DNA of 12,337 bases, from contig JALRIJ010000085.1 of the NCBI GenBank assembly GCA_023255485.1, positions 1-12,337 on the forward strand. The letters run 5' to 3'. The position numbers and the translations under genes are program-made. The stretch comes from Flectobacillus sp. (GTDB lineage Bacteria > Bacteroidota > Bacteroidia > Cytophagales > Spirosomataceae). The notes beneath the pieces are model-generated. The model was not told the DNA's origin. It did not search any database and worked only from the letters and a program-made list of their open reading frames with translations. Position 1 is the stretch's first letter, and each line of letters opens with the position of its first letter. This document shows, in pieces, positions 626-11,121 of this stretch.

Positions 626-654
626 GCATTGAAGTACCTTATTATCGTATAACA

Positions 655-692
655 AAAACGTCCTCGAAGATTATTTTCGAGGACGTTTTTGG
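655..692 (+). terminator. Rho-independent terminator of prfA
   Basis: Perfect 14-bp inverted repeat AAAACGTCCTCGAA / TTCGAGGACGTTTT around a 7-nt loop, followed by TTTTTGG. It lies 30 bp after the prfA stop. Confidence 0.7.
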
Positions 693-705
693 TTAATATT
701 CTCTC

Positions 706-781
706 CTATATTTTCTAGTATTTGATTCTTCACATTAATGACCTAATTGAGATATAGAATAATTCTATACTTCAACATGAT
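706..781. repeat. Copy A of a ~75-bp bipartite intergenic repeat. The left motif is CTATATTTTCTAGTATTTGATTCT and the right motif is AATTCTATACTTCAACAT.
   Basis: The 24-nt left end is identical to 1015-1038. The right-end motif AATTC(Y)(n)TACTTCAACAT is shared. The distance from TTTTCTAGTA to AATTC is exactly 50 bp in all three copies. The middle is diverged. Confidence 0.7.
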
Positions 782-792
782 ACCTGATAATT

Positions 793-850
793 TATATTTT
801 TTTCCTTTTAACAGGCGACTGAAGTCACCTGCTAAAAAGAAAAAATATAC
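793..850. repeat. Stem-loop element H1. The 14-bp outer stem (797-810 / 833-845) has one C·A mismatch, and the 22-nt core is ACAGGCGACTGAAGTCACCTGC.
   Basis: Inverted repeat TTTTTTTCCTTTTA / TAAAAAGAAAAAA. The core contains an inner stem GGCGAC/GTCACC closed by a TGAA tetraloop. The core is homologous to those at 943-966 (in reverse complement) and 9074-9095. Confidence 0.65.
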
Positions 851-923
851 TCGTTTTGAGTTCAACAATTAGTTTGTTGTCCAAATATCAACGATAGAAA
901 TTCAGTTACCATTTGGGGTATCC

Positions 924-985
924 TTGTTATTCTTTTCCATTTAGACGGCGACTTCAGTCGCTGGCGAAATGGAAAAGAATAACAA
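924..985. repeat. Stem-loop element H2. It has a perfect 19-bp outer stem (924-942 / 967-985) and a 24-nt core, AGACGGCGACTTCAGTCGCTGGCG, which is the reverse complement of the H1 core.
   Basis: TTGTTATTCTTTTCCATTT pairs perfectly with AAATGGAAAAGAATAACAA. The reverse complement of the core contains GCGACTGAAGTCGCC, an 11-nt identity to the H1 core at GCGACTGAAGTC. The flanks CCATTT...TAAATGG are identical to H3. Confidence 0.7.
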
Positions 986-1014
986 ATGATAAAATACTTG
1001 AGCTGAAGTACTCA

Positions 1015-1090
1015 CTATATTTTCTAGTATTTGATTCTCCAAGTTAATCTTCTGTTTGAAATAGAGAGAAATTCCATACTTCAACATAAT
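1015..1090. repeat. Copy B of the ~75-bp bipartite repeat, in direct orientation relative to copy A.
   Basis: CTATATTTTCTAGTATTTGATTCT is identical to 706-729, and ...AATTCCATACTTCAACATAAT matches the right end of copy A. It ends 14 bp before the stop codon of the minus-strand GH3 gene. Confidence 0.7.
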
Positions 1091-1103
1091 TTATAACTCT
1101 TCC

Positions 1104-2588
1104 CTACAACTTATCCGCAATCGCTCTATCATTAGATAAACGAGGTACTTTATTTTGTCCTCCCAATTTACCTTGCGACTTCATATAGTCAATAAATGCG
1201 TTCTTTTTCAGACTATTAATTTTCAACGGTTGAAGAATATTTCCCGTCATCAAATCGTCGTAATAGACATTCAGTTCAGCGAGTTTCGTATTTAAGTCGT
1301 GGGCAAAACTAGCTAAATTAGTGGGTTGTTGCGAAAATTCAATCAACCATTCATGATAAGGTAGTTCTCCATCTTCTGGTGTTACTTGTGGTGCAACGGT
1401 AAACTCAACGACTTCCGCCTCTGGGTGACGCTTAGTAGCATATTGCATGGCTTTTTCGACTTCTTCCCCAATCACGTGTTCTCCAAAAGCAGAGATAAAG
1501 TGCTTGATTCTGCCCGACACAATAATCCGATACGGACTTAACGAAACAAACTTTACCGTATCACCTAGTGAATAGCCCCACAAACCCGCATTGGTATTCA
1601 TAATGACAGCGTAGTTTACACCCAATTCTACTTCTCCAATGTGCAAACGACGGGGATTTTCTGAGAAATATTCATCCGCAGGAATAAATTCATAAAATAC
1701 ACCCGAATTTAAAAGCATTAACATTCCCTCTTCCGTTTGGGTATCTTGATACGCAATGAATCCTTCTGATGCAGGATAGGTTTCAATCGAGTCAATTTGC
1801 TTACCGATAGATTCAATCAATTTGGCACGATAAGGCGAAAAATTCACCCCACCATACACAAACAAGGAGAAGTTTTTAAACACGTCCTTAATTTTCTTAT
1901 CGGTACGATTTTGAATACGGTCGAAGTACATTTGTACCCACGGCGGAATTCCCGAAATCAACGACATATCTTCATTGATGGTTTCATCAATAATTTTATC
2001 CAGTTTACTTTCCCAATCTTCCATACAATTGGTTTCGTAACTTGGCATCTGATTCGAACGCAAATAACCTGGCACATGGTGATTGACAATTCCCGATAAA
2101 CGTCCTGTGAAAATGCCGTTCTTTTTATCCATTTCAGGCGAGCCAGAAAGGAATATTAATTTTTTGTCAAGAAATTGCGAATTACCCGTTTCGTGTACAT
2201 AACTTAATAACGCATCCCTTGCTCCATTGATATGGAAACCTATTGATTCTTTAGAAATCGGAATATATTTAACACCCGAAGTAGTCCCTGATGTTTTAGC
2301 AAAGTAGAGCGGTTTCCCTTTCCACAAAATATCAGGCTCTCCAGCCACAACCATTTCAATATAGGGCTTCAAAGACTCATAGTCTTTTACAGGAACGTTA
2401 TTTTTAAAAGACTGATAATCAATAATTTCATCAAAATGATGATCTTTTCCAAAAAGCGTGTGTGCTGCTTCCGAGACCAACGATTTCATAAGTAATAGTT
2501 GTGTTTCTACAGCATTTTTTTCCCATTTACGACGGGCATTTATAACGTAAGCGGCAAAAGGTTTTGCCAATAGTGAGCGGAATCCCAT
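1104..2588 (-). CDS. GH3 auxin-responsive-promoter family protein. This is an ANL-superfamily acyl-acid amido synthetase-like adenylating enzyme, a bacterial homologue of plant GH3/JAR1.
   Basis: The 494-aa ORF has a GH3-family N-terminus (LAKPFAAYVINARRKWEKNAVETQ). It has the adenylate-forming P-loop-like motif FAKTSGTTSGVKYIPISKES, the ...YGGVNFSPYR... segment and ASEGF, as in bacterial GH3 proteins. This length and domain order is a common annotation in Flavobacteriia/Cytophagia. Confidence 0.8.
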   Translation of the reverse strand: MGFRSLLAKPFAAYVINARRKWEKNAVETQLLLMKSLVSEAAHTLFGKDHHFDEIIDYQSFKNNVPVKDYESLKPYIEMVVAGEPDILWKGKPLYFAKTSGTTSGVKYIPISKESIGFHINGARDALLSYVHETGNSQFLDKKLIFLSGSPEMDKKNGIFTGRLSGIVNHHVPGYLRSNQMPSYETNCMEDWESKLDKIIDETINEDMSLISGIPPWVQMYFDRIQNRTDKKIKDVFKNFSLFVYGGVNFSPYRAKLIESIGKQIDSIETYPASEGFIAYQDTQTEEGMLMLLNSGVFYEFIPADEYFSENPRRLHIGEVELGVNYAVIMNTNAGLWGYSLGDTVKFVSLSPYRIIVSGRIKHFISAFGEHVIGEEVEKAMQYATKRHPEAEVVEFTVAPQVTPEDGELPYHEWLIEFSQQPTNLASFAHDLNTKLAELNVYYDDLMTGNILQPLKINSLKKNAFIDYMKSQGKLGGQNKVPRLSNDRAIADKL

Positions 2589-2631
2589 AATGATATTGAT
2601 TATTAATCTTTTCCAAAGTTAAAAAATAAAG

Positions 2632-3285
2632 CTACATTCTAAACGTCATCCGATGAAAAGGCGTGACTCCATGCTCTCGAATAGCCGCTTTATGTTTGGG
2701 CGTTGGATAACCAGCGTTATGTTCCCAACCATAATGTGGATATGTTAAGGCAAGAGTTTCCATCAACTCATCTCGATACGTTTTCGCTAAAATAGAGGCA
2801 GCTGCAATGCTCATAAATTTGGCATCTCCTTTAACAATACAGGTATGCGGGATAAGCGGATAATTAGGAAAGCGATTACCATCAATTAATAAGTGTTCAG
2901 GACGGACGTTCAGTTTGTCAACACAGAGATGCATGGCTTTCATGCTGGCTTTCAAGATATTTATTTCATCAATATCCTGATTAGATACCTCGGCAATCGT
3001 CCAAGCGATGGCATCTCGTTGAATATCCAAGCGAATAATATCTCGCTGTTTTTTAGTTAATTGTTTGGAATCGTTCAACAACTCATGCGAATAATCCTTA
3101 GGTAAAATCACCGCTGCCGCCACTACAGGCCCTGCCAAACAGCCTCTTCCTGCTTCGTCGAGACCTGCCTCAATCATGGATTCATTGTAAAAACTTTTAA
3201 GCATATCGTAAAAGGTCGTAATTTTATGTAAAGTTAGGGCAATTTTATGATTAGAAACATCCGCTTCAAAAACATCCCTTGGCAT
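2632..3285 (-). CDS. rnhB: Ribonuclease HII. The coordinates give the longest ORF. The true start is more likely the Met 27 codons downstream, at 3204, giving ~190 aa.
   Basis: RNase HII catalytic motifs are present: [24 protein letters not shown] (the DEAGRG metal-binding site), [19 protein letters not shown] and [14 protein letters not shown]. The 36-aa N-terminal extension of the long ORF has no counterpart in Bacteroides RnhB as I remember it, which starts about 9-12 residues before the IEAG motif. Confidence 0.9.
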
Positions 3286-3436
3286 GATTTATGCTTAGTT
3301 TCGACTGTTAGTTAGATTTCAAAAGACTAACATAGTTCATCTTACAGCCCAAACCTCTTCGTTTGTTCAGCTGTTTACAAAGGAGAATACCCTTTCATTA
3401 GTAGAATTTTCACCCTGATTTTAAGATACATAGACA

Positions 3437-5998
3437 ATGCCTAATCTAAGAACAATAGGACTGACATTTACGCTGGCTGTAACATTTTTTGTAAATGTGA
3501 ATGCACAACAAGAAACTAGCCCATCCTTAGCCGATGCAGTTAGGCACTTTGAGTTATTGAGCTATCCCACAGCCATTACAAAATTTGAGCGTATTCTCAA
3601 AGAGAATAGCACAAGCCTTTCAGAAACAGACAAAACGTCTATCTTATTGAAATTAGCGTATAGTTATAAAAAAACTAGCAATGATATCAATGCAGAGAAA
3701 TACTACCGAGAAGCCCTAAAAACAAGTCCTAAGTTAGTAGGTGACGACCTAAAAACATATTTATATTTTGCTCAGACACTTGCCGCTAATGGCAAATTCA
3801 AAGAAGCCCAGCAATATTATGACAAATACGAACTGGTTGCCCCTTCTCTGAAAAGTGATAAAATGAGTGCCAGTGTCAGTACCAATGCTAAACTAAATAG
3901 CGACGTTACTCGTCTGAAAACAGATAAAGCTAAATATATTGTAGAATACCTGACTTTTAATTCAGATAAGCCAGAATTCAGCCCAATTTATTATAAAAGT
4001 GGTTTAGTTTTCTGCTCTGGAAAATCGCAAGGAGCTCTTTCTGCCAATAAAAAAGGAGGCTTTTTAGACTTGTACTACCTCAGCGATTTATCAATGGTGA
4101 AAGGGAATGTAGTGGACGGCGATGAAGAAGTACAGACCAAACGCAAAACAGACAATACGCTGACAGCCTCTCTGGGCAATGACTATTATTCGCAGGTTAC
4201 TGCCAACGATTCAAAAACACTGAGCTTTTTCGGAGGTGTGGATAAATCACCTGTTATTAGCACCGACAAAGGACAAATTGCCGAATCCGATATTTTCAGT
4301 AAAACTTTGAATACCAAATTACACGAGGGGCCGACAACTTTTAGTAATGACTTTTCTAAAATTATTTTTACCAGAAATAACTTTAATGAAGGCGAACAAG
4401 GACGTAGCGAAGACAATGTTACGAAGTTAAAACTCTATACCGCCGACAACAGCAAAGGAGTTTGGTCAAATCCTGTAGAATTACCCTTCAATGGGGACGA
4501 TTTTTCTACGGCACACCCTAGCTTATCCAAAGACGGACGTTACTTATATTTTGCCTCAGACAGACCGAATGGTTTTGGAGGTATGGACTTATGGATGGTC
4601 GAAAATGTCAACGGTAAATGGACTGACCCTAAAAATTTAGGAAAAGAAATCAATACGAAATCAACGGATGCATTTCCATTTGTTGATGAAAATGGCAATT
4701 TATACTACGCCTCAGAAGGACTTGGTGGCGAAGGAGGCTTGGACATCTTTTTTGTGGAAATGAAAAAAGGAATGCCTGTAGGTAAACCTTTCAACATTGG
4801 AGAACCTTTCAACTCTGTTAATGATGATTTCGGCATCATTACCGATGGAGAACGCAGTGTTGGTTTTTTTAGCTCTGACCGTAGAAAAGGGGTTGACGAC
4901 GATATTTATCGTTTCAAAAGACAATCTTCGCTCTATGATTGTAAGGAATTAACGATTAGCGTTATTGACCCCGACAATCACAAAAAGCCTATCGAAGGAG
5001 CAACGATTTCATTAAGCAAAAAAGGAGATACTCCAACTACACAAGTAACCAATGCGGGAGGGCTTGTTAAAATTTGTACTGAAGAAAACATCAACTATCA
5101 AATTAAAGTAGGTAAAGATGGTTATATCAATAATATTGTAGGCTATTCAACTCGAGGAGAAATTGGGGATGCTCCTTCTATTATTGAGGTGCCATTATCA
5201 AAAATAACCATCATCGAGTCAGAGACAACCATTATTCAAAAGCTCCCTCAAGTTGAAATTCCCAAGGAACTATTGGCTCCCAAACCTAAGGTAAATGTTA
5301 TCAGAGGGATTATTACAGAAGGAGTAGATAAAACTCCTATCGAAGGTGTTCTCTTGACCATGCGTAATCTTTGCGATGGCTCTGTACAAAGCTATACAAC
5401 CGAATTAGATGGTAAATATGCGTTTCAGGTTTTGCCAGGGTGTAATTATGAAATGGACTTTGAGAAAGAAGGATATGCCAGCATTACAGATCCTGTTGAA
5501 CTAAAAGATGCCGATGCAGACCCCGACACAACCGCATCAGATACCAAACCAGTAACGGTTATCAAAGTTGACAAGCTCAAAAAAGGGAAACCAAAGGTAA
5601 TTTCTAAAAACGTAGATTTGGTAAAAGAAGGTAATCTCATTACGCTCAACAATATCTACTATAATCCCAATAGTGTACAACTCAAAAAAGAATCGTATAA
5701 AGAATTAAACAAACTCGTTGCCAGTCTTCGTAATTATCCTGAAATGGTCATCGAAATCGGTTCACATACAGACTCTCGTGGCGATGCACAGGATAACCTT
5801 ACCTTATCTCAAAAGAAAGCGGCTAGTGTTGTCGATTTTATCACGAGTAGAGGTATTGACCGTAGTCGTGTAATTCCAAGAGGTTATGGAGAAACCATGT
5901 TAGTAAATCAATGTAAAGATGGTGTTATCTGTACTGAACGAGAGCACGAACGCAATAGAAGAACAACAATCCGAATTTTGAAAATTCGTCAAAAATAA
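3437..5998 (+). CDS. Secreted multidomain OmpA-family protein. The domains run signal peptide, TPR repeats, TolB-like/WD40-like beta-propeller (PD40), two carboxypeptidase-regulatory-like (CarbopepD_reg) beta-sandwich domains, then a C-terminal OmpA peptidoglycan-binding domain.
   Basis: The N-terminus MPNLRTIGLTFTLAVTFFVNVNAQQ is a signal peptide. TPR-like helical repeats follow (YYREALKTSPK...GKFKEAQQYYDKY). PD40 repeats are present (SLSKDGRYLYFASDRPNGFGGMDLWMV; FPFVDENGNLYYASEG; GFFSSDRRKGVDDDIY). CarbopepD_reg-like segments are LTISVIDPDNHKKPIEGATISL and IRGIITEGVDKTPIEGVLLTM. The OmpA-C motifs are LNNIYYNPNSVQL, IEIGSHTDSRGD, NLTLSQKKAASVVDF and RGYGET. Confidence 0.88.
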   Translation: MPNLRTIGLTFTLAVTFFVNVNAQQETSPSLADAVRHFELLSYPTAITKFERILKENSTSLSETDKTSILLKLAYSYKKTSNDINAEKYYREALKTSPKLVGDDLKTYLYFAQTLAANGKFKEAQQYYDKYELVAPSLKSDKMSASVSTNAKLNSDVTRLKTDKAKYIVEYLTFNSDKPEFSPIYYKSGLVFCSGKSQGALSANKKGGFLDLYYLSDLSMVKGNVVDGDEEVQTKRKTDNTLTASLGNDYYSQVTANDSKTLSFFGGVDKSPVISTDKGQIAESDIFSKTLNTKLHEGPTTFSNDFSKIIFTRNNFNEGEQGRSEDNVTKLKLYTADNSKGVWSNPVELPFNGDDFSTAHPSLSKDGRYLYFASDRPNGFGGMDLWMVENVNGKWTDPKNLGKEINTKSTDAFPFVDENGNLYYASEGLGGEGGLDIFFVEMKKGMPVGKPFNIGEPFNSVNDDFGIITDGERSVGFFSSDRRKGVDDDIYRFKRQSSLYDCKELTISVIDPDNHKKPIEGATISLSKKGDTPTTQVTNAGGLVKICTEENINYQIKVGKDGYINNIVGYSTRGEIGDAPSIIEVPLSKITIIESETTIIQKLPQVEIPKELLAPKPKVNVIRGIITEGVDKTPIEGVLLTMRNLCDGSVQSYTTELDGKYAFQVLPGCNYEMDFEKEGYASITDPVELKDADADPDTTASDTKPVTVIKVDKLKKGKPKVISKNVDLVKEGNLITLNNIYYNPNSVQLKKESYKELNKLVASLRNYPEMVIEIGSHTDSRGDAQDNLTLSQKKAASVVDFITSRGIDRSRVIPRGYGETMLVNQCKDGVICTEREHERNRRTTIRILKIRQK

Positions 5999-6122: not shown

Positions 6123-7148
6123 ATGCGTGAAGATTATTTAAAAGGAGATAAAGAACCGCTATCTGGACCAGAAAAGGAGATTGAAAAAGCCTTACGTCCA
6201 CTATCTTTTGATGATTTTGCGGGTCAAGATAAAGTACTTGAAAATCTGAAAGTATTTGTTCAGGCAGCCAAACAGCGAGAAGAAGCCCTCGACCACGTGC
6301 TACTCCATGGCCCTCCAGGGTTAGGAAAGACAACACTTTCAAATATTGTAGCCAATGAGTTAGGGGCGAACATCAAAATCACCTCTGGCCCTGTGTTGGA
6401 TAAACCGTCTGATTTAGCGGGTCTATTAACCAATTTGCAGCCCTACGATGTGTTATTTATTGATGAGATTCACCGCTTGAATCCGATTGTAGAAGAGTAC
6501 CTCTACTCGGCCATGGAAGATTACAAAATTGACATCTTGCTAGACTCTGGGCCCAATGCTCGCAGTGTCCAAATTTCGTTGAATCCCTTTACCCTCATTG
6601 GAGCAACGACTCGTGCAGGAATGTTGACCTCTCCCCTACGAGCTCGTTTCGGAATCAATGCTCGTTTGGAATATTATGATGCCAAATTACTAACCTCTAT
6701 TGTTAAACGTTCTTGCCAAATTTTGAACACTCCCGTAGATGATGAAGGAGCTTACGAAATAGCAAGACGAAGTAGAGGTACGCCTCGTATCGCCAACAAT
6801 TTGTTAAGAAGAACTCGTGATTTTGCCCAAGTAAAAGGCGATGGACGTATTACAGTACACATTGCTGAAATAGCCCTTGCCGCATTGGACGTAGATCAAA
6901 ACGGATTGGACGAAATGGATAACCGTATCTTAACAACCATCATCGAAAAATTCAAAGGAGGCCCTGTCGGCTTATCTACCATTGCAACAGCATGTGGAGA
7001 AGAAGCCGAAACCATCGAAGAGGTTTATGAACCTTTCTTAATCCAAGAAGGCTTCCTAAAACGTACCTCTCGTGGACGAGAAGCCACAGAGCTCGCTTAT
7101 AAACATTTAGGAATTGTACCCAAATTTAGAGCAGGGGAACTTTTCTAA
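6123..7148 (+). CDS. ruvB: Holliday junction branch-migration ATPase RuvB
   Basis: The 341-aa ORF has a Walker A motif ([20 protein letters not shown]) and a Walker B motif ([11 protein letters not shown]). It has sensor 1 (LIGATTRAG), the arginine finger region (SPLRARFGI) and the winged-helix C-terminus typical of RuvB. Confidence 0.96.
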
Positions 7149-7271: not shown

Positions 7272-7310
7272 TGCTACGATGTATCAATCCGCAAGTAGCA
7301 CTTCTTTATA
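7272..7310 (+). terminator. Possible intrinsic terminator for ruvB: a short hairpin followed by CTTCTTTAT. It overlaps the 3' end of the convergent small ORF.
   Basis: TGCTAC (7272-7277) pairs with GTAGCA (7295-7300) around a 17-nt loop, followed by a T-rich tract at 7301-7310. Confidence 0.3.
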
Positions 7311-7605
7311 AGTTAAAATCCTTCTCTGATAGCTCCATTGTTTTGGGCTTGTTAGATGCTCCCGTTACAAAAAAGTGACTTTGACAACTCATACAACGAT
7401 AATATTTTAGTCCTGAAAAATAGACCAAAAACAGACGCACCAAAATTGGTCTTCTCTTACGATCTCCATGGCCAGAGCCACATACAGGACATTTAGAAGA
7501 AGACGATTTTCTGGAAAAATAAAAGGCCAGCATGACAAGCTGAATCAGCAATAACCCTAGTATAATCTTCACAAAAAGACTATCTAATAATTGAGAAAAC
7601 ATCAT
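7306..7605 (-). CDS. Small hypothetical protein of 99 aa with an N-terminal transmembrane helix and a C-terminal CxxC-(31)-CxxC zinc-ribbon-like module.
   Basis: The ORF carries a hydrophobic segment IILGLLLIQLVMLAFYF, then CPVCGSGHGDRKRRP...YRCMSCQSHF. Amino-acid composition is protein-like, and the ORF is convergent with ruvB. There is no homology I can name. Confidence 0.5.
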   Translation of the reverse strand: MMFSQLLDSLFVKIILGLLLIQLVMLAFYFSRKSSSSKCPVCGSGHGDRKRRPILVRLFLVYFSGLKYYRCMSCQSHFFVTGASNKPKTMELSEKDFNL

Positions 7606-7742
7606 ACGTTTAGATTTTGTGTTATTAGTTTAAAATCATTATTACAAGTATGTTTACTAGTTTGTACGATGTCATACAACCCTAGTAATAAATTTAACAA
7701 AAAGTCCTATTATGGTAATTTTACTATCGAATAACCTGCAAG

Positions 7743-7817
7743 TGGTTTTCTAGTAAAATGATTGTGTCGTAACTATGTATAAAACTGCCCATATCAATTC
7801 CTACTGTCAAGGAACGC
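7743..7817. repeat. Degenerate third copy (C) of the ~75-bp bipartite repeat.
   Basis: TTTTCTAGTAaaaTGATT at 7746-7763 and AATTCCTACTgtCAA at 7796-7810 match the left and right motifs of copies A and B, with the same 50-bp spacing between them. A further partial left-motif TTTaCTAGTtTTTG lies at 7648-7661. Confidence 0.45.
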
Positions 7818-7964
7818 ATAACATTATAATACTAAGTTGTGTAGAGAATTAACAAGAAGATTCTTAAGCGAAGATTGAAGCCACCAAGGGCAAGTGATAG
7901 TTTTTTTATTTTGGTAGTTCAATTTACAGTTTTAAAACAAGATAAGAAAACTCCGACTTTACTA

Positions 7965-7996
7965 TTTGCTCCTAAAATGAGTGAACGGTATTTTTG
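7965..7996 (+). promoter_or_regulatory. Candidate sigma-A promoter for the membrane-protein gene: TTTG (7965-7968), then 20 bp, then TATTTTTG (7989-7996).
   Basis: Both halves of the Bacteroidota consensus (-33 TTTG / -7 TAnnTTTG) are present at canonical spacing. The implied TSS is near 8003, giving a ~235-nt leader before the ATG at 8238. Confidence 0.4.
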
Positions 7997-8072
7997 AAGG
8001 TATTTGAGATTTATAAACTAAAAAATAAGCTATTACAAGCTCTTTTTCTTTACTACTCCTAGAAGAATCTGC

Positions 8073-8129
8073 TTTGTCAAACATCCCAAATACCACTGAT
8101 ACTCCCTGTTTTTTGTCAAATCTCCCAAA
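8073..8129 (+). promoter_or_regulatory. Two tandem 18-nt direct repeats, TTTGTCAAAcaTCCCAAA (8073-8090) and TTTGTCAAAtcTCCCAAA (8112-8129), with starts 39 bp apart, in the leader/promoter region of the membrane-protein gene.
   Basis: 16 of 18 positions are identical. The repeats sit 109 bp upstream of the 8238 ATG and about 76 bp downstream of the -7 element at 7989-7996. The 39-bp phasing, close to four helical turns, is typical of direct-repeat operator sites. Confidence 0.4.
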
Positions 8130-8237
8130 AGGTTGTTCTATAGCCCTATTACTTGACTTAGCTCTTCTGACCTCCCTACCTTTGTCTCAGTCAACCAGTA
8201 AATACCTCCAACACAATTCAATATAACACTCAATATC

Positions 8238-8894
8238 ATGGACACATTCTTACATTACGTACTTTATTTACACATCCTTTCAGGCTTTACCGCTTTAGTT
8301 GTCGGACTCATTCCTATGTTTAGCCAGAAAGGCGGAAAGGCTCATATTCTATGGGGAAAAGTTTACTATTGGGCTATGTTTTTAGTAGCTCTTACGGCAT
8401 TACTCCGCTTCAAACCTGAAGTACGTCTAGTCTTTTTAGGTTGCATTGCCGTGTTTAGTTTTTACAATACCTTCACAGGAGTACGCCTTATCAAGTTAAA
8501 AAATCAAGTCACTCAAGCAGGGTGGCAAGACTGGTTAGGAGCCTACCTAGCCTTAGGATGTAGCCTGTTAATGGGAGCTTATGCCGTTTATGTAGTAGTG
8601 GCATATAGCAATGTCTTCTTTGGAATTTTATTCACCGTCTTTGGAGCTTTTTGTATGCTACTAGCCGTGACAGATTTGTTGGTTTTTTCGGGTAAAAAAA
8701 GCGTAGAAAAACTCCATTGGTTATATGGACACATCAGCAGAATGGGTGGGTCTTACATTGCTACGGTAACCGCTTTTTTGGTAGTAAACAACAAAGGACT
8801 AGTACCTGATTTGATGGCATGGATTGCCCCTGGAGTCATTGGTGGAATCATTATTGGAAGGGTAACAAAGGCCTATAAAAAGAAGGTGGCTTAA
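8238..8894 (+). CDS. Hypothetical integral membrane protein of 218 aa with about 6 predicted TM helices.
   Basis: Hydrophobic segments alternate with short loops (LHILSGFTALVVGLIPMF; YYWAMFLVALTALL; VFLGCIAVFSFYNTF; LGAYLALGCSLLMGAYAVYVVVAY; FGILFTVFGAFCMLLAV; SYIATVTAFLVV; IAPGVIGGIIIG). The C-terminal KAYKKKVA is positive-inside. I do not recognise the family. Confidence 0.65.
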   Translation: MDTFLHYVLYLHILSGFTALVVGLIPMFSQKGGKAHILWGKVYYWAMFLVALTALLRFKPEVRLVFLGCIAVFSFYNTFTGVRLIKLKNQVTQAGWQDWLGAYLALGCSLLMGAYAVYVVVAYSNVFFGILFTVFGAFCMLLAVTDLLVFSGKKSVEKLHWLYGHISRMGGSYIATVTAFLVVNNKGLVPDLMAWIAPGVIGGIIIGRVTKAYKKKVA

Positions 8895-9059
8895 CTATGG
8901 GGAGCTTCCTATTTTGACAATGGACTAACACCCATTGCTGAGACATATCGCCCTCACAGGGCTACCGAAGTCGTTTTACTTATAGTGAAATCCTAGGTAG
9001 CAACTAAGGATATTACCACAAAATTTGTCAGAGAATCAACTGTTTTTGTATAAAGAATA

Positions 9060-9109
9060 AACTATTCCATTTAACAGGTAAATGAATTCACCCGCTAAAT
9101 GGAATAGTT
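9060..9109. repeat. Stem-loop element H3. It has a perfect 14-bp outer stem (9060-9073 / 9096-9109) around a 22-nt core, ACAGGTAAATGAATTCACCCGC. A T-rich tract follows on the minus strand, so it may also terminate the flotillin gene.
   Basis: AACTATTCCATTTA pairs with TAAATGGAATAGTT. The core aligns with the H1 core: AACAGG...TGAA...CACCyGCTAA. The flanks CCATTT/AAATGG are identical to H2. On the minus strand the hairpin is followed by TTATTCTTTAT. Confidence 0.65.
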
Positions 9110-9213: not shown

Positions 9214-11121
9214 TTAATTTGCACTTACATTTTCTCCACCCTCCTCTTTATCAACTTGCTTTTTCTTGGTCATTTCTTCCATTAAACGCAAGCCTAACAG
9301 ACCGCTCAAAGCACCATTTTGGTCATTATTTCCTCCTGTAATTAAAATATCTGGAATGACCTTGATTCGTTCTCTACCGATACTTTCCGTGATTTTCAGC
9401 TGCGTAAAGTTGTCTCCACCCATCGCAGAAACGGCCAATTGATATGCTTCGGCATCAGCTTTACCAATGGCTAAGATTTTCTCCGCTTCGGCAGCACCCG
9501 TCTTACTGATTTTTTCAGCTTCGGCATTAGCAAGTAACTTTATTCGTTCCGATTCGGCACTGGCTTGTAATTTCACCCGTTCTGCCTCTGCTCCTGCTTG
9601 TAGCTTCAAGCTTTGAGCCTCCCCTTGTGCTTTTTTCACGGCTGCATCAGCAACTCTTTCAGCAATAACAACTCCTTGATCGGCTTTCACAATATCCTTC
9701 TGAATTTCGGCAATGGCGGTTTCTTTCTCTAAAGCCTGACGAGTTTCTTGTGCCATTTTTTGCGTATCATAAGTTACCTTTTGCTCTTCGGCTAACTTAC
9801 GGTCAGTTAAGGTTTTCATCAACGATTCTGGCGGAACAATATCCCCTATCAGCGTATCTACGGCATTGACATTATATTGAGAAAGCACTTCGCCAATGTA
9901 TTTCCGAGCCGTTTCCTGACGTTGGGTACGAGAACCCAAGAACGAAATTACATCAGAGCCTTGTGCCGAGTTACGGAAATAGTTACCAATCGTCGGCTCT
10001 AACACCTGACTCACCAAATTGTGCATATTCCCGAAACGAGCAATCACTTTGGGAGCTTCGTAATTAGGAATGTGGATAATCTGCGACACGTCCAAATTAA
10101 AAGGGAATCCATCTTTTGAACGCACCGTAATGGTCGAAAGGTTTTTATCTAATTGGTGCGATTCTGATCTTGCACTCGCCCAGTTGAGTACCAAGTTGGT
10201 CGTTGGCACTAATTCAATTTTTTGAACAAAGGTATTCACTGGATATTTCCCAGGGCCAAGCGGTTCTGTCCACACCCCTTTGTACCCTTTTGAAACAATA
10301 TTTCCATGTTTAAATTCTGTTCCACTGATGTCTTCACCATCTTCGCCCACATACGAAATCACGACCCCCACATACCCAATCGGAATTTCGGTCATGTGGA
10401 TTTCTTCTACCTTCACAAACCACGGGTTTAAGTTATAAGACCCTGCCAAGACGACCTGCTGTTGAAGCCCTTTATTCCCTCCGCCATTCAAAAAAGCATC
10501 TACGTCTTGAAAATTATTGTGCCCATCAATTGACTTACCCGAAATTTGTCCTGCCTCAATAGAAGCACCGTCCAAGGTCGTCACAATCCCAACCATATTT
10601 TCTTGAATTTCTGTTAAATCCGTCAACTGTACTTCAAACAATAAGGTATTTATTCGGTACGAACCAGCCGTTATAATAGCCGTTTGTCGCCCTTTTCTAC
10701 CCCCATTTTTCAAGAATGCTTCCGTATCTTGAAAGCTATCACATTCGATTTTACGGCCTAGAATACGACCTGTTTCCAACTCTTTTCCATCACGTGCCAA
10801 GACCAGCCCAATTTTACCCGTAGGAATCACCGTCAGAGGCTGTAAGGTAATGTCATACTGCCAAATCCAATACCAGAAATAAATCCCAGGAGATAGCGGT
10901 TTTGCCTGATAACCCGCTTCGCCTTCGGTGGCAAAAATACGCCCATCGGGTAGTTCTTTTTTATCGCCAAACAAGACAAACTTCTTCGTTACCAGCCCAA
11001 TACGGTCTTCTGGAACGATGATAATACCCAATAAACGAAAGATAAATTTGTAAAAAATTAGGCAAAACAAGGGAACTGCAATGCCAATGATGGAAGTAAT
11101 AGAAAGGCTCATTTTCAACAA
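9214..11121 (-). CDS. SPFH-domain / flotillin-family membrane protein (band 7, YqiK/FloT-like). It has an N-terminal membrane anchor, an internally duplicated beta-rich segment and a C-terminal Ala/Glu-rich coiled coil.
   Basis: The 635-aa ORF begins with the hydrophobic N-terminus SIIGIAVPLFCLIFYKFIF. The SPFH core follows. The C-terminal region carries flotillin-type EA repeats (AEAERVKLQASAESERIKLLANAEAEKISKTGAAEAEKILAIGKADAEAYQ). Residues ~120-165 (ECDSFQDTEAFLKNGGRKG...) are repeated at ~200-245 (GHNNFQDVDAFLNGGGNKG...). Confidence 0.85.
   Translation of the reverse strand: MLKMSLSITSIIGIAVPLFCLIFYKFIFRLLGIIIVPEDRIGLVTKKFVLFGDKKELPDGRIFATEGEAGYQAKPLSPGIYFWYWIWQYDITLQPLTVIPTGKIGLVLARDGKELETGRILGRKIECDSFQDTEAFLKNGGRKGRQTAIITAGSYRINTLLFEVQLTDLTEIQENMVGIVTTLDGASIEAGQISGKSIDGHNNFQDVDAFLNGGGNKGLQQQVVLAGSYNLNPWFVKVEEIHMTEIPIGYVGVVISYVGEDGEDISGTEFKHGNIVSKGYKGVWTEPLGPGKYPVNTFVQKIELVPTTNLVLNWASARSESHQLDKNLSTITVRSKDGFPFNLDVSQIIHIPNYEAPKVIARFGNMHNLVSQVLEPTIGNYFRNSAQGSDVISFLGSRTQRQETARKYIGEVLSQYNVNAVDTLIGDIVPPESLMKTLTDRKLAEEQKVTYDTQKMAQETRQALEKETAIAEIQKDIVKADQGVVIAERVADAAVKKAQGEAQSLKLQAGAEAERVKLQASAESERIKLLANAEAEKISKTGAAEAEKILAIGKADAEAYQLAVSAMGGDNFTQLKITESIGRERIKVIPDILITGGNNDQNGALSGLLGLRLMEEMTKKKQVDKEEGGENVSAN

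What the first reader, a model, noticed from the sequence alone, without database searches (positions are those of the whole stretch)
7606..8237. 632-bp ORF-free, AT-rich region upstream of a membrane-protein gene: consensus promoter, ~235-nt leader, tandem 18-nt direct repeats
No ORF longer than ~25 codons occurs on either strand. Yet the region contains a textbook Bacteroidota promoter, TTTG-N20-TATTTTTG at 7965-7996, far upstream of the ATG at 8238. It also holds the degenerate repeat copy C and two near-identical 18-mers TTTGTCAAAnnTCCCAAA at 39-bp phasing inside the implied leader. Long structured leaders in front of small multi-TM proteins are often riboswitches or other cis-regulatory RNAs. 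The tandem repeats could be operator half-sites for a regulator, or repeated elements of an RNA leader. I could not match the leader to any riboswitch consensus from memory. The Mn2+, fluoride, preQ1 and guanidine riboswitches were considered and not recognised.
Basis: partly seen in the sequence, partly recalled or inferred. Interest (0 to 1): 0.5.

Follow-up and report, generated by a model that had tools for sequence, protein, structure and literature searches.

The report
Orphan LytTR-type operator array and promoter
The two 18-mers belong to a conserved row of about five 20-bp direct repeats just upstream of a typical Bacteroidota promoter, probably docking sites for a membrane-anchored LytTR transcription factor, and not part of an RNA leader or riboswitch.

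Summary
The sequence facts are mostly right. The spacer is AT-rich, the two exact 18-mers sit at 8073 and 8112, and a consensus promoter match lies at 7965-7996. The riboswitch or long-leader reading is not supported. Rfam finds nothing, the implied leader folds no better than shuffles, and RNAalifold on 12 orthologous regions predicts no pairs.

Comparison with 28 non-redundant related loci shows an array of about five units, TTTGTCAAAnnTCCC, at 19-20 bp phasing. The last unit's TTG serves as the -33 element of a conserved promoter. Its -7 box is TACCTTTG at 8177-8184, 61 nt before the ATG. The first repeat lies 102-104 nt before the -7 box in every independent locus where a -7 box was located.

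A metagenome scan using only the DNA motif found the same array in distant Bacteroidota. It almost always precedes an operon containing a DUF2306 gene. It almost always follows directly after a gene for a four-helix membrane protein with a C-terminal LytTR DNA-binding domain, often preceded by a rhomboid protease gene.

In the window's lineage the regulator gene is not adjacent, so the array is an orphan operator. A TonB-dependent receptor gene present in close relatives is absent here. Binding and the transcription start remain untested.

The parts
8073..8090 (+). Repeat unit 1, TTTGTCAAACATCCCAAA (TTG 8074-8076, CCC 8085-8087). This is the strongest and most widely conserved unit.
   Evidence: Exact match, with 0 expected by chance. 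The identical 17-mer is found in Arcicella, in Cytophagales MAGs and in metagenome loci. Information-content peaks fall at -104..-102 and -92..-90 relative to the -7 box.
8093..8107 (+). Repeat unit 2, a weak unit (ccactgatactCCCt). It keeps the phased CCC at 8104-8106 but has no TTG.
   Evidence: In the gap-free register alignment the CCC at -73..-71 is conserved in 28 loci. Unit 2 has the lowest information content of the units, 7.7 bits.
8112..8129 (+). Repeat unit 3, TTTGTCAAATCTCCCAAA (TTG 8113-8115, CCC 8124-8126).
   Evidence: It has the highest unit information content, 14.0 bits.
8132..8146 (+). Repeat unit 4, gTTGttctatagCCC (TTG 8133-8135, CCC 8144-8146).
   Evidence: Phased 20 bp after unit 3. 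TTG at about -44 and CCC at about -33 are conserved across loci.
8152..8155 (+). Start of unit 5, cTTG. Proposed -33 element of promoter P1, with a 21-nt spacer to the -7 box.
   Evidence: TTG at -24..-22 is conserved in the register alignment. The geometry fits the Bacteroides promoter form TTTG/TGTA-19 bp-TAnnTTTG cited in PMC6193735, Table 3.
8177..8184 (+). -7 box of promoter P1, TACCTTTG (consensus TAnnTTTG).
   Evidence: Present 31-85 nt before the first start codon in 17 of the 21 array-bearing loci scanned, 151 nt before it in L029, with a 1-nt variant in two Flectobacillus loci and no match in L019. It lies 102-104 nt after unit 1 in 12 of the 15 metagenome loci tested. In L057 and L058 the pattern had matched one unit further along, so the box lies about 20 nt closer. 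The regex found none in L065. Mean information content is 1.49 bits per column, against 0.11-0.13 in the flanks.
8189..8237 (+). Predicted short, unstructured, G-poor 5' leader of the DUF2306 mRNA. The start site is inferred, not mapped.
   Evidence: The motif tCtCAtTCAAAA follows the -7 box and is conserved. The fold of 8190-8260 has MFE -1.1 kcal/mol and z +1.03. There is no consensus structure.
8238..8894 (+). DUF2306-family membrane protein gene (218 aa), the regulated gene.
   Evidence: Pfam PF10067, E 2.6e-06, below the gathering cut-off. 514 homologues, most carrying precomputed PF10067. A member of this orthogroup follows the array in 29 loci.
7965..7996 (+). It contains the genus-conserved box TGAGTGAACGGTAT (7978-7991) in its spacer. 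Possibly a secondary promoter or operator; function unknown.
   Evidence: One search confirms the match. Searches show the box TGA(G/T)T(G/A)AACGGTA is invariant in the window, L003, L004, L005 and L094. The -33 G and the -7 TTTG are not conserved in those loci.
7606..7964 (.). AT-rich spacer with no conserved feature apart from its first ~57 bp, which adjoin the divergent 99-aa gene.
   Evidence: It is poorly alignable and indel-rich among the window, L003 and L005. There is no Rfam hit, and no LytTR or other protein remnant by tblastn at E<=1e-3.

Best explanation
Window 8073-8184 is a compound transcriptional control region that works as DNA. It holds four phased ~20-bp direct-repeat units, TTTGTCAAAnnTCCC, alternating strong and weak. 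A fifth unit's TTG doubles as the -33 element of a housekeeping-sigma Bacteroidota promoter, whose -7 box is TACCTTTG at 8177-8184. Transcription is predicted to start near 8189, giving a short unstructured leader of about 49 nt before the DUF2306 gene.

The repeats are most likely the operator for a membrane-anchored one-component regulator with four N-terminal transmembrane helices and a C-terminal LytTR DNA-binding domain. Several copies would bind along one face of the helix and, most likely, recruit RNA polymerase to the abutting -33 element, that is, activate.

In most Bacteroidota that carry this array, the regulator gene ends 3-25 nt before unit 1 and is often preceded by a rhomboid protease gene. 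In the Arcicella, Flectobacillus and window clade the regulator gene has moved elsewhere. The window's array is therefore an orphan operator acting in trans. Close relatives also carry a TonB-dependent receptor gene between the promoter and DUF2306, and the window lacks it.

Shown here: the array, its phasing, its fixed distance to the -7 box, its link to DUF2306 operons, and the adjacency of LytTR genes in other lineages.

Inferred: that this LytTR protein binds the array, that the effect is activation rather than repression, the position of the transcription start, and that the window's own genome encodes the regulator.
For: 1. The 18-mer pair is non-random: 0 matches in 200 shuffles.
2. Anchoring on the -7 box puts TTG and CCC in register with no gaps across Arcicella, Flectobacillus, Pseudarcicella, Emticicia, Cytophagales MAGs and metagenome loci. 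Mean information content is 0.56 bit per column in the array, against 0.11-0.13 in the flanks and promoter spacer.
3. Unit 1 lies 102-104 nt before the TA of the -7 box in 12 of the 15 metagenome loci tested. L057 and L058 were matched one unit further along, and L065 has no -7 box by the regex.
4. A metagenome scan with the DNA pattern alone gave 49 loci, about 21 of them true arrays. Those with enough downstream DNA carry a DUF2306 gene in the downstream operon, at only 25-63% identity to the window's protein. One short contig, L048, has a GDSL lipase instead.
5. Neighbour clustering found a ~280-aa protein immediately upstream of the array in 14 loci, and a rhomboid in 8. Pfam gives LytTR PF04397 at E~1e-13 and Rhomboid PF01694 at E 1e-22. 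The protein has four hydrophobic segments.
6. An unlinked regulator and an orphan array occur in the same genome. MAG JAAFIU01 has the array in L020 and the TM-LytTR on another contig, L092. Arcicella rosea S00070 has both on one contig, far apart (L016, L086).
7. High PWM scores (>=18) occur essentially only inside the arrays; the exceptions are unrelated pattern hits with no -7 box, such as L038 and the 39-nt tandem repeat of L040/L049.
8. Published LytTR operators are 8-11 bp direct repeats spaced 10-13 bp apart, abutting or overlapping the -35. Membrane-bound LytTR regulators are documented: CoxC, and Bacteroides TM-LytTR proteins (PMC11347149 and PMC6193735).
Against: - No LytTR gene lies in the window. 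None lies within 10 kb beyond its left edge in a same-genus contig (L094). Whether the window's genome has the regulator is unknown.
- The repeat core TTTGTCAAA does not fit the classical LytTR consensus [TA][AC][CA]GTTN[AG][TG]. That consensus is from my own knowledge and is known to be loose.
- The array has 4-5 units, where characterised LytTR operators have 2-3.
- Adjacency is association, not proof of binding.
- The metagenome pattern itself required units 1 and 3, so the sameness of the motif across those loci is partly imposed by the search. The gene neighbours were not imposed.
- No transcription-start data exist.
- Activation versus repression is open. CoxC, the closest membrane-bound example, is a repressor whose repeats overlap the -35.
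Confidence: 0.6

Rival explanations
1. Transcription starts at the consensus promoter at 7965-7996, giving a leader of about 235 nt. The 18-mers are repeated elements of a structured cis-regulatory RNA or riboswitch that controls the membrane-protein gene.
For: The promoter consensus match at 7965-7996 is real and mildly enriched. A box within it is conserved in the genus. The region has no conserved ORF.
Against: There is no Rfam match. The fold z-score is -0.77. RNAalifold predicts 0 pairs on 12 orthologues. The sequence is G-poor (GC skew -0.38) and cannot pair with itself. The repeats are direct, phased at 20 bp, and locked to a downstream -7 box. In other lineages the array begins 3-25 nt after the stop codon of the preceding gene, which leaves no room for an upstream promoter of this kind.
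Confidence: 0.04
2. The array is a real operator, but a different direct-repeat-binding activator binds it, for example an OmpR/PhoB-type response regulator (as at the 20-bp F1-F3 sites of ompF) or an AraC/XylS-type protein. The neighbouring LytTR gene would be merely co-regulated or co-inherited.
For: Contiguous 20-bp units abutting the -35 are also typical of OmpR and AraC/XylS/MelR promoters (my own knowledge). Each unit has two conserved blocks about one helical turn apart, TTGTCAAA and CCC, like a two-HTH AraC monomer site. The window clade keeps the array without an adjacent LytTR gene. L003 has an ECF sigma and a putative anti-sigma gene downstream.
Against: No OmpR or AraC gene recurs next to the array. 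The only recurrent DNA-binding neighbour is the TM-LytTR, in 14 loci. The ECF sigma is found in only one array locus.
Confidence: 0.2
3. In the window's own genome the array is a decaying relic. The TonB receptor gene has been deleted and the regulator may be lost, so the DUF2306 gene would run constitutively from P1 or from the upstream promoter.
For: The TBDR is present in L003, L005 and L094 but absent in the window, L002 and L004. No LytTR gene was found nearby. The window has a perfect-consensus upstream promoter that its relatives lack.
Against: Units 1 and 3 are intact: unit 1 is identical to the cross-genus consensus 17-mer. All phased CCC and TTG positions and the -7 box are kept. The same TBDR-less layout is stable in Arcicella and Flectobacillus, where an unlinked LytTR orthologue exists.
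Confidence: 0.1
4. The phased CCCAAA/TTTG units act mainly through DNA shape, as intrinsic curvature or an UP-element-like contact with RNA polymerase, with no dedicated regulator.
For: A-tracts recur in helical phase, every two turns, upstream of the -33. The region is AT-rich.
Against: Conservation is base-specific, in TTGTCAAAC and CCC, and is not just a matter of composition. It persists across lineages in which the neighbouring protein has diverged to 25-40% identity. It is also tightly tied to one gene family and to a DNA-binding protein gene.
Confidence: 0.05

Closest known systems
CoxC / PcoxB of Afipia carboxidovorans (membrane-bound single-component LytTR regulator; PMC11347149)
   Same: Both have a transmembrane N-terminal domain fused to a C-terminal LytTR domain. 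In both, the operator is made of more than two direct repeats at LytTR-type spacing and reaches the -35 region of the target promoter. In both, the regulator acts on an adjacent operon.
   Different: CoxC has a 7-TM MHYT domain that senses CO with copper and acts as a repressor. The family here has an unrelated 4-TM domain with no Pfam match, and its signal is unknown. The repeat sequence differs from the RcoM1 motif TTCNNGCA quoted in that paper. This array has 4-5 units extending about 80 bp upstream, which suggests activation. In the window the regulator gene is not adjacent.
LytTR Regulatory Systems and Bacteroides 'LRS-like' operons (PMC6193735)
   Same: Both have direct repeats just upstream of the promoter at a period of about 20-22 bp. 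The Bacteroides examples have LytTR proteins with several transmembrane segments and a TGTA-19 bp-TATCTTTG type promoter.
   Different: LRS repeats come as a pair, lie upstream of the regulator's own operon (autoregulation), and are partnered by a DUF2154/NfeD inhibitor protein. Here the array lies downstream of the regulator gene, no high-scoring site precedes the regulator, the partner is a rhomboid protease, and the motif is different.
AgrA P2/P3, ComE and PlnC type LytTR response-regulator operators (my own knowledge, plus the summary in PMC11347149)
   Same: These are 9-bp direct repeats spaced 12-13 bp apart, sit immediately upstream of the -35, and activate.
   Different: Those regulators are phosphorylated soluble response regulators. 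Their consensus [TA][AC][CA]GTTN[AG][TG] is not matched here, and they use two repeats, not five units.
OmpR F1-F2-F3 / C1-C2-C3 sites at ompF and ompC (my own knowledge)
   Same: Contiguous 20-bp units tile roughly -100 to -40 and abut the -35.
   Different: This is a different protein family (winged helix). No OmpR-type gene is associated with the array.
Bacteroidota housekeeping promoter, -33 TTTG / -7 TAnnTTTG (Bayley et al. 2000, as cited in PMC6193735)
   Same: P1 has TACCTTTG and a TTG 21 nt upstream. The -7 box is conserved in all array loci.
   Different: The -33 in the window is CTTG, not TTTG, and it forms part of the repeat array.

Membership tests
Riboswitch or structured cis-regulatory RNA leader | Match to a curated RNA family | tested here: not met
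   Rfam 15 finds nothing in the whole window at gathering thresholds. At E<=10 over 7500-8350 the only hit is a snoRNA at 15.7 bits against a 52-bit cut-off.
Riboswitch or structured cis-regulatory RNA leader | Conserved secondary structure with covariation among orthologues | tested here: not met
   RNAalifold on 12 orthologous array-to-ATG regions gives 0 predicted pairs and 0 kcal/mol.
Riboswitch or structured cis-regulatory RNA leader | Folding stability beyond composition | tested here: not met
   7997-8250 has z -0.77. 8190-8260 has MFE -1.1 kcal/mol and z +1.03.
Riboswitch or structured cis-regulatory RNA leader | The element lies within the transcribed 5' UTR | not testable with these tools
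   There are no transcription-start data. The conserved -7 box downstream of the repeats predicts that they are not transcribed from P1.
LytTR-family operator | Direct (not inverted) repeats of about 9-11 bp separated by about 10-13 bp (period 19-22 bp) | tested here: met
   TTG falls at 8074, 8113, 8133 and 8153. CCC falls at 8085, 8104, 8124 and 8144. The 19-20 bp period is conserved in 28 loci. The criterion is from PMC11347149 and PMC6193735.
LytTR-family operator | Position immediately upstream of, or overlapping, the -35/-33 element | tested here: met
   Unit 5's TTG is the -33 element, 21 nt before the -7 box. The geometry is fixed in all loci.
LytTR-family operator | A cognate LytTR-domain protein is encoded with it | tested here: inconclusive
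   Met in 14 related loci and in Emticicia (PF04397). Met in trans in two genomes with orphan arrays. Not met in the window, nor within 10 kb in same-genus L094.
LytTR-family operator | Repeat matches the classical LytTR consensus [TA][AC][CA]GTTN[AG][TG] | tested here: not met
   By inspection neither strand of TTTGTCAAACATCCC fits; only a GTT core is present on the reverse strand. PMC6193735 notes that functional LytTR repeats often diverge from this consensus.
LytTR-family operator | Sequence-specific binding by the LytTR domain | not testable with these tools
   This needs EMSA or footprinting.
Bacteroidota sigma-A promoter (-33 TTTG / -7 TAnnTTTG), P1 at 8152-8184 | -7 TAnnTTTG with a TTG 19-21 nt upstream, conserved among orthologues | tested here: met
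   TACCTTTG lies at 8177-8184 and TTG at 8153-8155. The -7 box averages 1.49 bits per column over 28 loci.
Bacteroidota sigma-A promoter (-33 TTTG / -7 TAnnTTTG), P1 at 8152-8184 | Mapped transcription start about 5-7 nt downstream of the -7 box | not testable with these tools
   No RNA data are available.
   The window has a perfect match. Relatives have TAcaTTTT, TAtgTTTC, TAtaTTTC or TAtcTCTA, and TTTT or TTTA at -33. The spacer box is better conserved than the promoter elements.

The most novel reading that the evidence does not exclude
The array is the cis-acting end of an undescribed, widely distributed Bacteroidota signalling module. In this module a four-helix membrane-tethered LytTR transcription factor is usually encoded together with a rhomboid intramembrane protease. 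The protease could release or inactivate the factor by regulated intramembrane proteolysis. The factor drives, through a five-unit phased operator fused to the -33 element, an envelope operon built around a DUF2306 protein. DUF2306 is predicted to bind haem, and it is joined by a variable outer-membrane partner: a TonB receptor, a ~430-aa protein with no Pfam match, or DUF2141. The window would then show that the operator survives unchanged after the regulator gene has moved away and the outer-membrane partner gene has been lost.
Probability: 0.35. Interest if true: 0.65.

Novelty: new variant of a known kind. Interest (0 to 1): 0.45.

Why it matters
The work replaces a speculative riboswitch call with a concrete, testable regulatory architecture. 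It also gives a sequence signature, TTGTCAAAYNTCCC phased at 20 bp and 102-104 nt before a TAnnTTTG box. That signature finds a conserved, uncharacterised regulon across Cytophagales and other Bacteroidota.

Membrane-bound one-component LytTR regulators have only one characterised prototype, CoxC. This family has a different sensor domain, a rhomboid partner and an unusually long operator. Its target family, DUF2306, has just begun to be de-orphaned (PMC12895699, bioRxiv 10.64898/2025.12.11.692455).

For genome annotation, the result shows that long 'empty' spacers in these genomes can hold orphan operators whose regulator is encoded elsewhere.

Tried and rejected
- **Rfam.** Gathering and permissive scans found nothing.
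- **Sigma-70 and terminator scan.** Nothing above the shuffle level in the region. The tool does not model Bacteroidota promoters.
- **'Copy C'.** Sensitive blastn of the spacer against the rest of the window gave only 10-12 nt chance matches.
- **Pseudogene remnant in 7606-8072.** tblastn with the LytTR, rhomboid, TBDR and ECF proteins gave no hit in the window spacer at E<=1e-3.
- **ECF sigma promoter idea.** This was prompted by the ECF and putative anti-sigma genes downstream in L003. The ECF gene is absent from the other array loci, and the repeats have no -35/-10 ECF-like pairing, so I dropped it.
- **Autoregulation.** The PWM scan found no high-scoring unit upstream of the rhomboid or LytTR genes.
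- **Locating the regulator in the window's own genome.** Exact look-up of the window's GH3 protein failed. A 109-kb same-genus contig (L094) shows no LytTR within 10 kb to the left of the window. A related contig (L093, prfA 94% identical) does have prfA-82aa-206aa-LytTR, but that synteny is not kept in L094.
- **Literature.** Searches for LytTR with rhomboid, LytTR with DUF2141, and LytTR in Flavobacterium or Cytophaga found no description of this module in the searchable library.
Full report
**Setting.** The window comes from a Spirosomataceae bacterium (Cytophagales) close to Arcicella and Flectobacillus. Evidence for this:
- The DUF2306 protein is 54-63% identical to those genera.
- RuvB is about 90-92% identical.
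- Near-identical metagenome contigs exist (L001, L002, L044).

Gene order around the finding is RuvB (6123-7148 +), a 99-aa membrane/zinc-ribbon-like ORF (7306-7605 -), the 632-bp spacer, a 218-aa DUF2306 membrane protein (8238-8894 +), and a flotillin/Band 7 gene (9214-11121 -).

**Checking the observation.**
- The spacer is AT-rich, with GC 0.29-0.35.
- The consensus promoter match TTTG-N20-TATTTTTG is at 7965-7996, one of 2 matches in the window against 0.38 expected.
- TTTGTCAAAnnTCCCAAA occurs exactly twice, at 8073 and 8112, with no match in any of 200 shuffles.
- The claim of no ORF above ~25 codons is loose. ORFs of 50, 47, 44 and 40 aa exist with TTG/GTG starts, and one of 31 aa with ATG. 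None looks coding.
- 'Copy C' is a 10-nt chance-level identity at 7746-7755.

**The RNA interpretation fails every test I could run.**
- Rfam gives nothing.
- The implied 235-nt leader folds no better than shuffles, z -0.77.
- The region is strongly G-poor, with GC skew -0.38.
- RNAalifold on 12 orthologous regions predicts no base pair at all.

**What comparison shows.** Close relatives gave the first clue. In L003 (DUF2306 89% identical), the same small ORF and the same 18-mers are present, but a 783-aa TonB-dependent receptor gene lies between them and DUF2306, 34 bp from the latter. L005 and L094 have the same layout. L004 and L002 look like the window.

A scan of GTDB genomes with a DUF2306 alignment showed that the 17-mer TTGTCAAACATCCCAAA is kept across genera. 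It always lies about 120-160 bp before the first gene of the unit, whether that gene is DUF2306 or the receptor.

Printing the upstream regions and anchoring them without gaps on a TAnnTTTG motif revealed the real structure. It is an array of units, each with TTG followed 11 nt later by CCC, repeated every 19-20 bp. Units 1 and 3 are strong, and units 2 and 4 are weaker.

In the window:
- TTG lies at 8074, 8113, 8133 and 8153.
- CCC lies at 8085, 8104, 8124 and 8144.
- The last TTG (8153-8155) sits 21 nt before TACCTTTG (8177-8184). That is the -33/-7 geometry of Bacteroidota housekeeping promoters, the form quoted for Bacteroides in PMC6193735.

On 28 loci dereplicated at 85% identity:
- Mean information content is 0.56 bit per column across the array.
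- It is 1.49 in the -7 box.
- It is only 0.11-0.13 upstream of the array and in the promoter spacer.

The -7 box is 61 nt from the window's ATG. The segment after it (tCtCAtTCAAAA...) is conserved and unstructured. The promoter that evolution has preserved is therefore P1 at 8152-8184, with a leader of about 49 nt. The 18-mers lie upstream of it, so they work as DNA.

**Who binds.** I scanned the metagenome collection with a pattern that specifies only units 1 and 3. Of 49 hits, about 21 have the full architecture. The -7 box lies 102-104 nt after unit 1 in 12 of the 15 tested. In L057 and L058 the pattern had matched one unit further along. The regex found no box in L065. The other hits are chance matches with no -7 box.

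Nothing about genes was imposed on this search, yet two associations emerged:
- The downstream operon contains a DUF2306 gene, at only 25-63% identity to the window's protein. It is preceded by a variable envelope gene: a TonB receptor, DUF2141, or a ~430-aa protein with no Pfam match.
- Clustering all neighbouring ORFs showed a ~280-aa protein encoded immediately upstream in 14 loci, with its stop codon 3-25 nt before unit 1. In two loci it is divergent. In 8 loci a ~205-aa protein precedes it.

Pfam identifies these as a LytTR DNA-binding domain (PF04397, E~1e-13) behind four hydrophobic helices, and a rhomboid protease (PF01694, E 1e-22). Emticicia shows the full cluster: rhomboid, TM-LytTR, array, DUF2141, then a 251-aa protein in the DUF2306 position that has no Pfam hit and was not tested here.

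LytTR domains bind direct repeats of 8-11 bp spaced 10-13 bp apart, just upstream of or overlapping the -35. Membrane-bound single-component LytTR regulators are documented: CoxC, and Bacteroides LRS-like proteins (PMC11347149, PMC6193735). Period, orientation and position of the array all fit this. The repeat sequence does not fit the classical AgrA-type consensus, which is loose.

**The window's special situation.** In the Arcicella, Flectobacillus and window clade the regulator gene is not next to the array. It still exists elsewhere in at least two genomes with orphan arrays:
- Arcicella rosea S00070 has both on the same contig, far apart (L016 and L086).
- MAG JAAFIU01 has the array in L020 and the regulator on another contig, L092.

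For the window's own genus I could not locate it. A 109-kb same-genus contig has no LytTR within 10 kb to the left of the window. So 'acts in trans' is an inference for this genome.

Within the genus the receptor gene is present in L003, L005 and L094 and absent in the window, L002 and L004. The array and P1 are retained intact in both forms.

**What remains unexplained.**
It is invariant in five genus members while the promoter hexamers drift. It may be an operator or part of a secondary promoter. I have no test for it.
- The rest of the spacer (7663-7964) is poorly conserved.

**Verdict.** The feature is real and conserved, but it is a DNA operator plus promoter, not an RNA element. It is best described as a new variant of a known kind: a LytTR-type direct-repeat operator that is unusually long, fused to the -33 element, and here orphaned from its regulator.

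My confidence that the array is a functional DNA-level control element of P1 is high, about 0.85. My confidence that the TM-LytTR family binds it is about 0.6. The idea that the rhomboid partner processes the regulator is speculation from gene adjacency only.

I found no paper describing this module in the searchable library. That does not prove none exists.

Noticed in passing
window 7978-7991: The box TGAGTGAACGGTAT is invariant or nearly so in five genus-level relatives (window, L003, L004, L005, L094). Its function is unknown. It could be an operator or part of a secondary promoter.
   Followed up: partly
window 8130-8240 versus L003 998-3383, L005 3839-6000, L094 1982-4327: A ~780-aa TonB-dependent receptor gene (CarboxypepD_reg + Plug) lies between the promoter and DUF2306 in some members of the genus. 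It is cleanly absent in the window, L002 and L004. In L005 the tblastn match is split (residues 18-585 and 691-783), so that copy may be damaged or partly masked.
   Followed up: partly
L045, L050, L055-L058, L061, L074, L088 (upstream of the array): A rhomboid protease gene directly precedes the TM-LytTR gene in at least 8 loci. This suggests the membrane-tethered regulator might be controlled by intramembrane proteolysis. I found no literature on this pairing.
   Followed up: partly
L040 about 750-5200 and L049 about 200-2030: A very long tandem array (dozens of copies) of a 39-nt unit, ttTTGtcaaatgtCCCCaagaataatttagacatgtcaatt, happens to contain the same 14-mer core. It has no -7 box and no DUF2306 context, so it looks like an unrelated satellite or iteron-like repeat.
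   Followed up: no
window 653-691, 787-841, 920-985, 9050-9109: A family of palindromic ~50-nt elements (core TTCCATTTAACAGG...CCTGCTAAATGGAA) sits in intergenic regions after prfA and after DUF2306. A perfect 19-bp hairpin at 653-691 is probably the prfA terminator. They resemble REP-like or terminator hairpins.
   Followed up: no
window 706-781 and 1015-1090: Two 76-nt direct repeats, 82% identical and 309 bp apart, bracket the palindromic elements in the prfA-GH3 spacer. This may be a small mobile element or a duplication. In the same-genus contig L094, a 118-aa ORF is called in this spacer.
   Followed up: no
L003 4195-5318: In one close relative an ECF sigma factor gene (171 aa) and an overlapping 202-aa membrane protein gene (a putative anti-sigma factor) follow DUF2306. 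They are absent from the window and from the other array loci.
   Followed up: partly
L048 (reoriented: array at 316; ORFs 452-1141 and 1251-1718): This is the only true-looking array not followed by DUF2306 within the contig. It precedes a GDSL-family lipase gene and a second ORF of 155 aa that was not scanned against any family library. The contig is only 1.7 kb, so a DUF2306 gene further downstream cannot be excluded. It may be an additional regulon member.
   Followed up: no
L006, L011, L017, L018, L021, L022, L028, L030-L036: DUF2306 paralogues in the same genera, sometimes in the same MAG as an array-bearing copy (for example JAAFJL01: L006 versus L009), have no array. The operator is therefore specific to one DUF2306 orthogroup.
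   Followed up: partly
window 9446-9559: 33-nt periodic direct repeats (GCTTCGGCA...) lie inside the flotillin/Band 7 gene. They correspond to its alanine/glutamate-rich repeat near the C-terminus and are an ordinary coding repeat.
   Followed up: no
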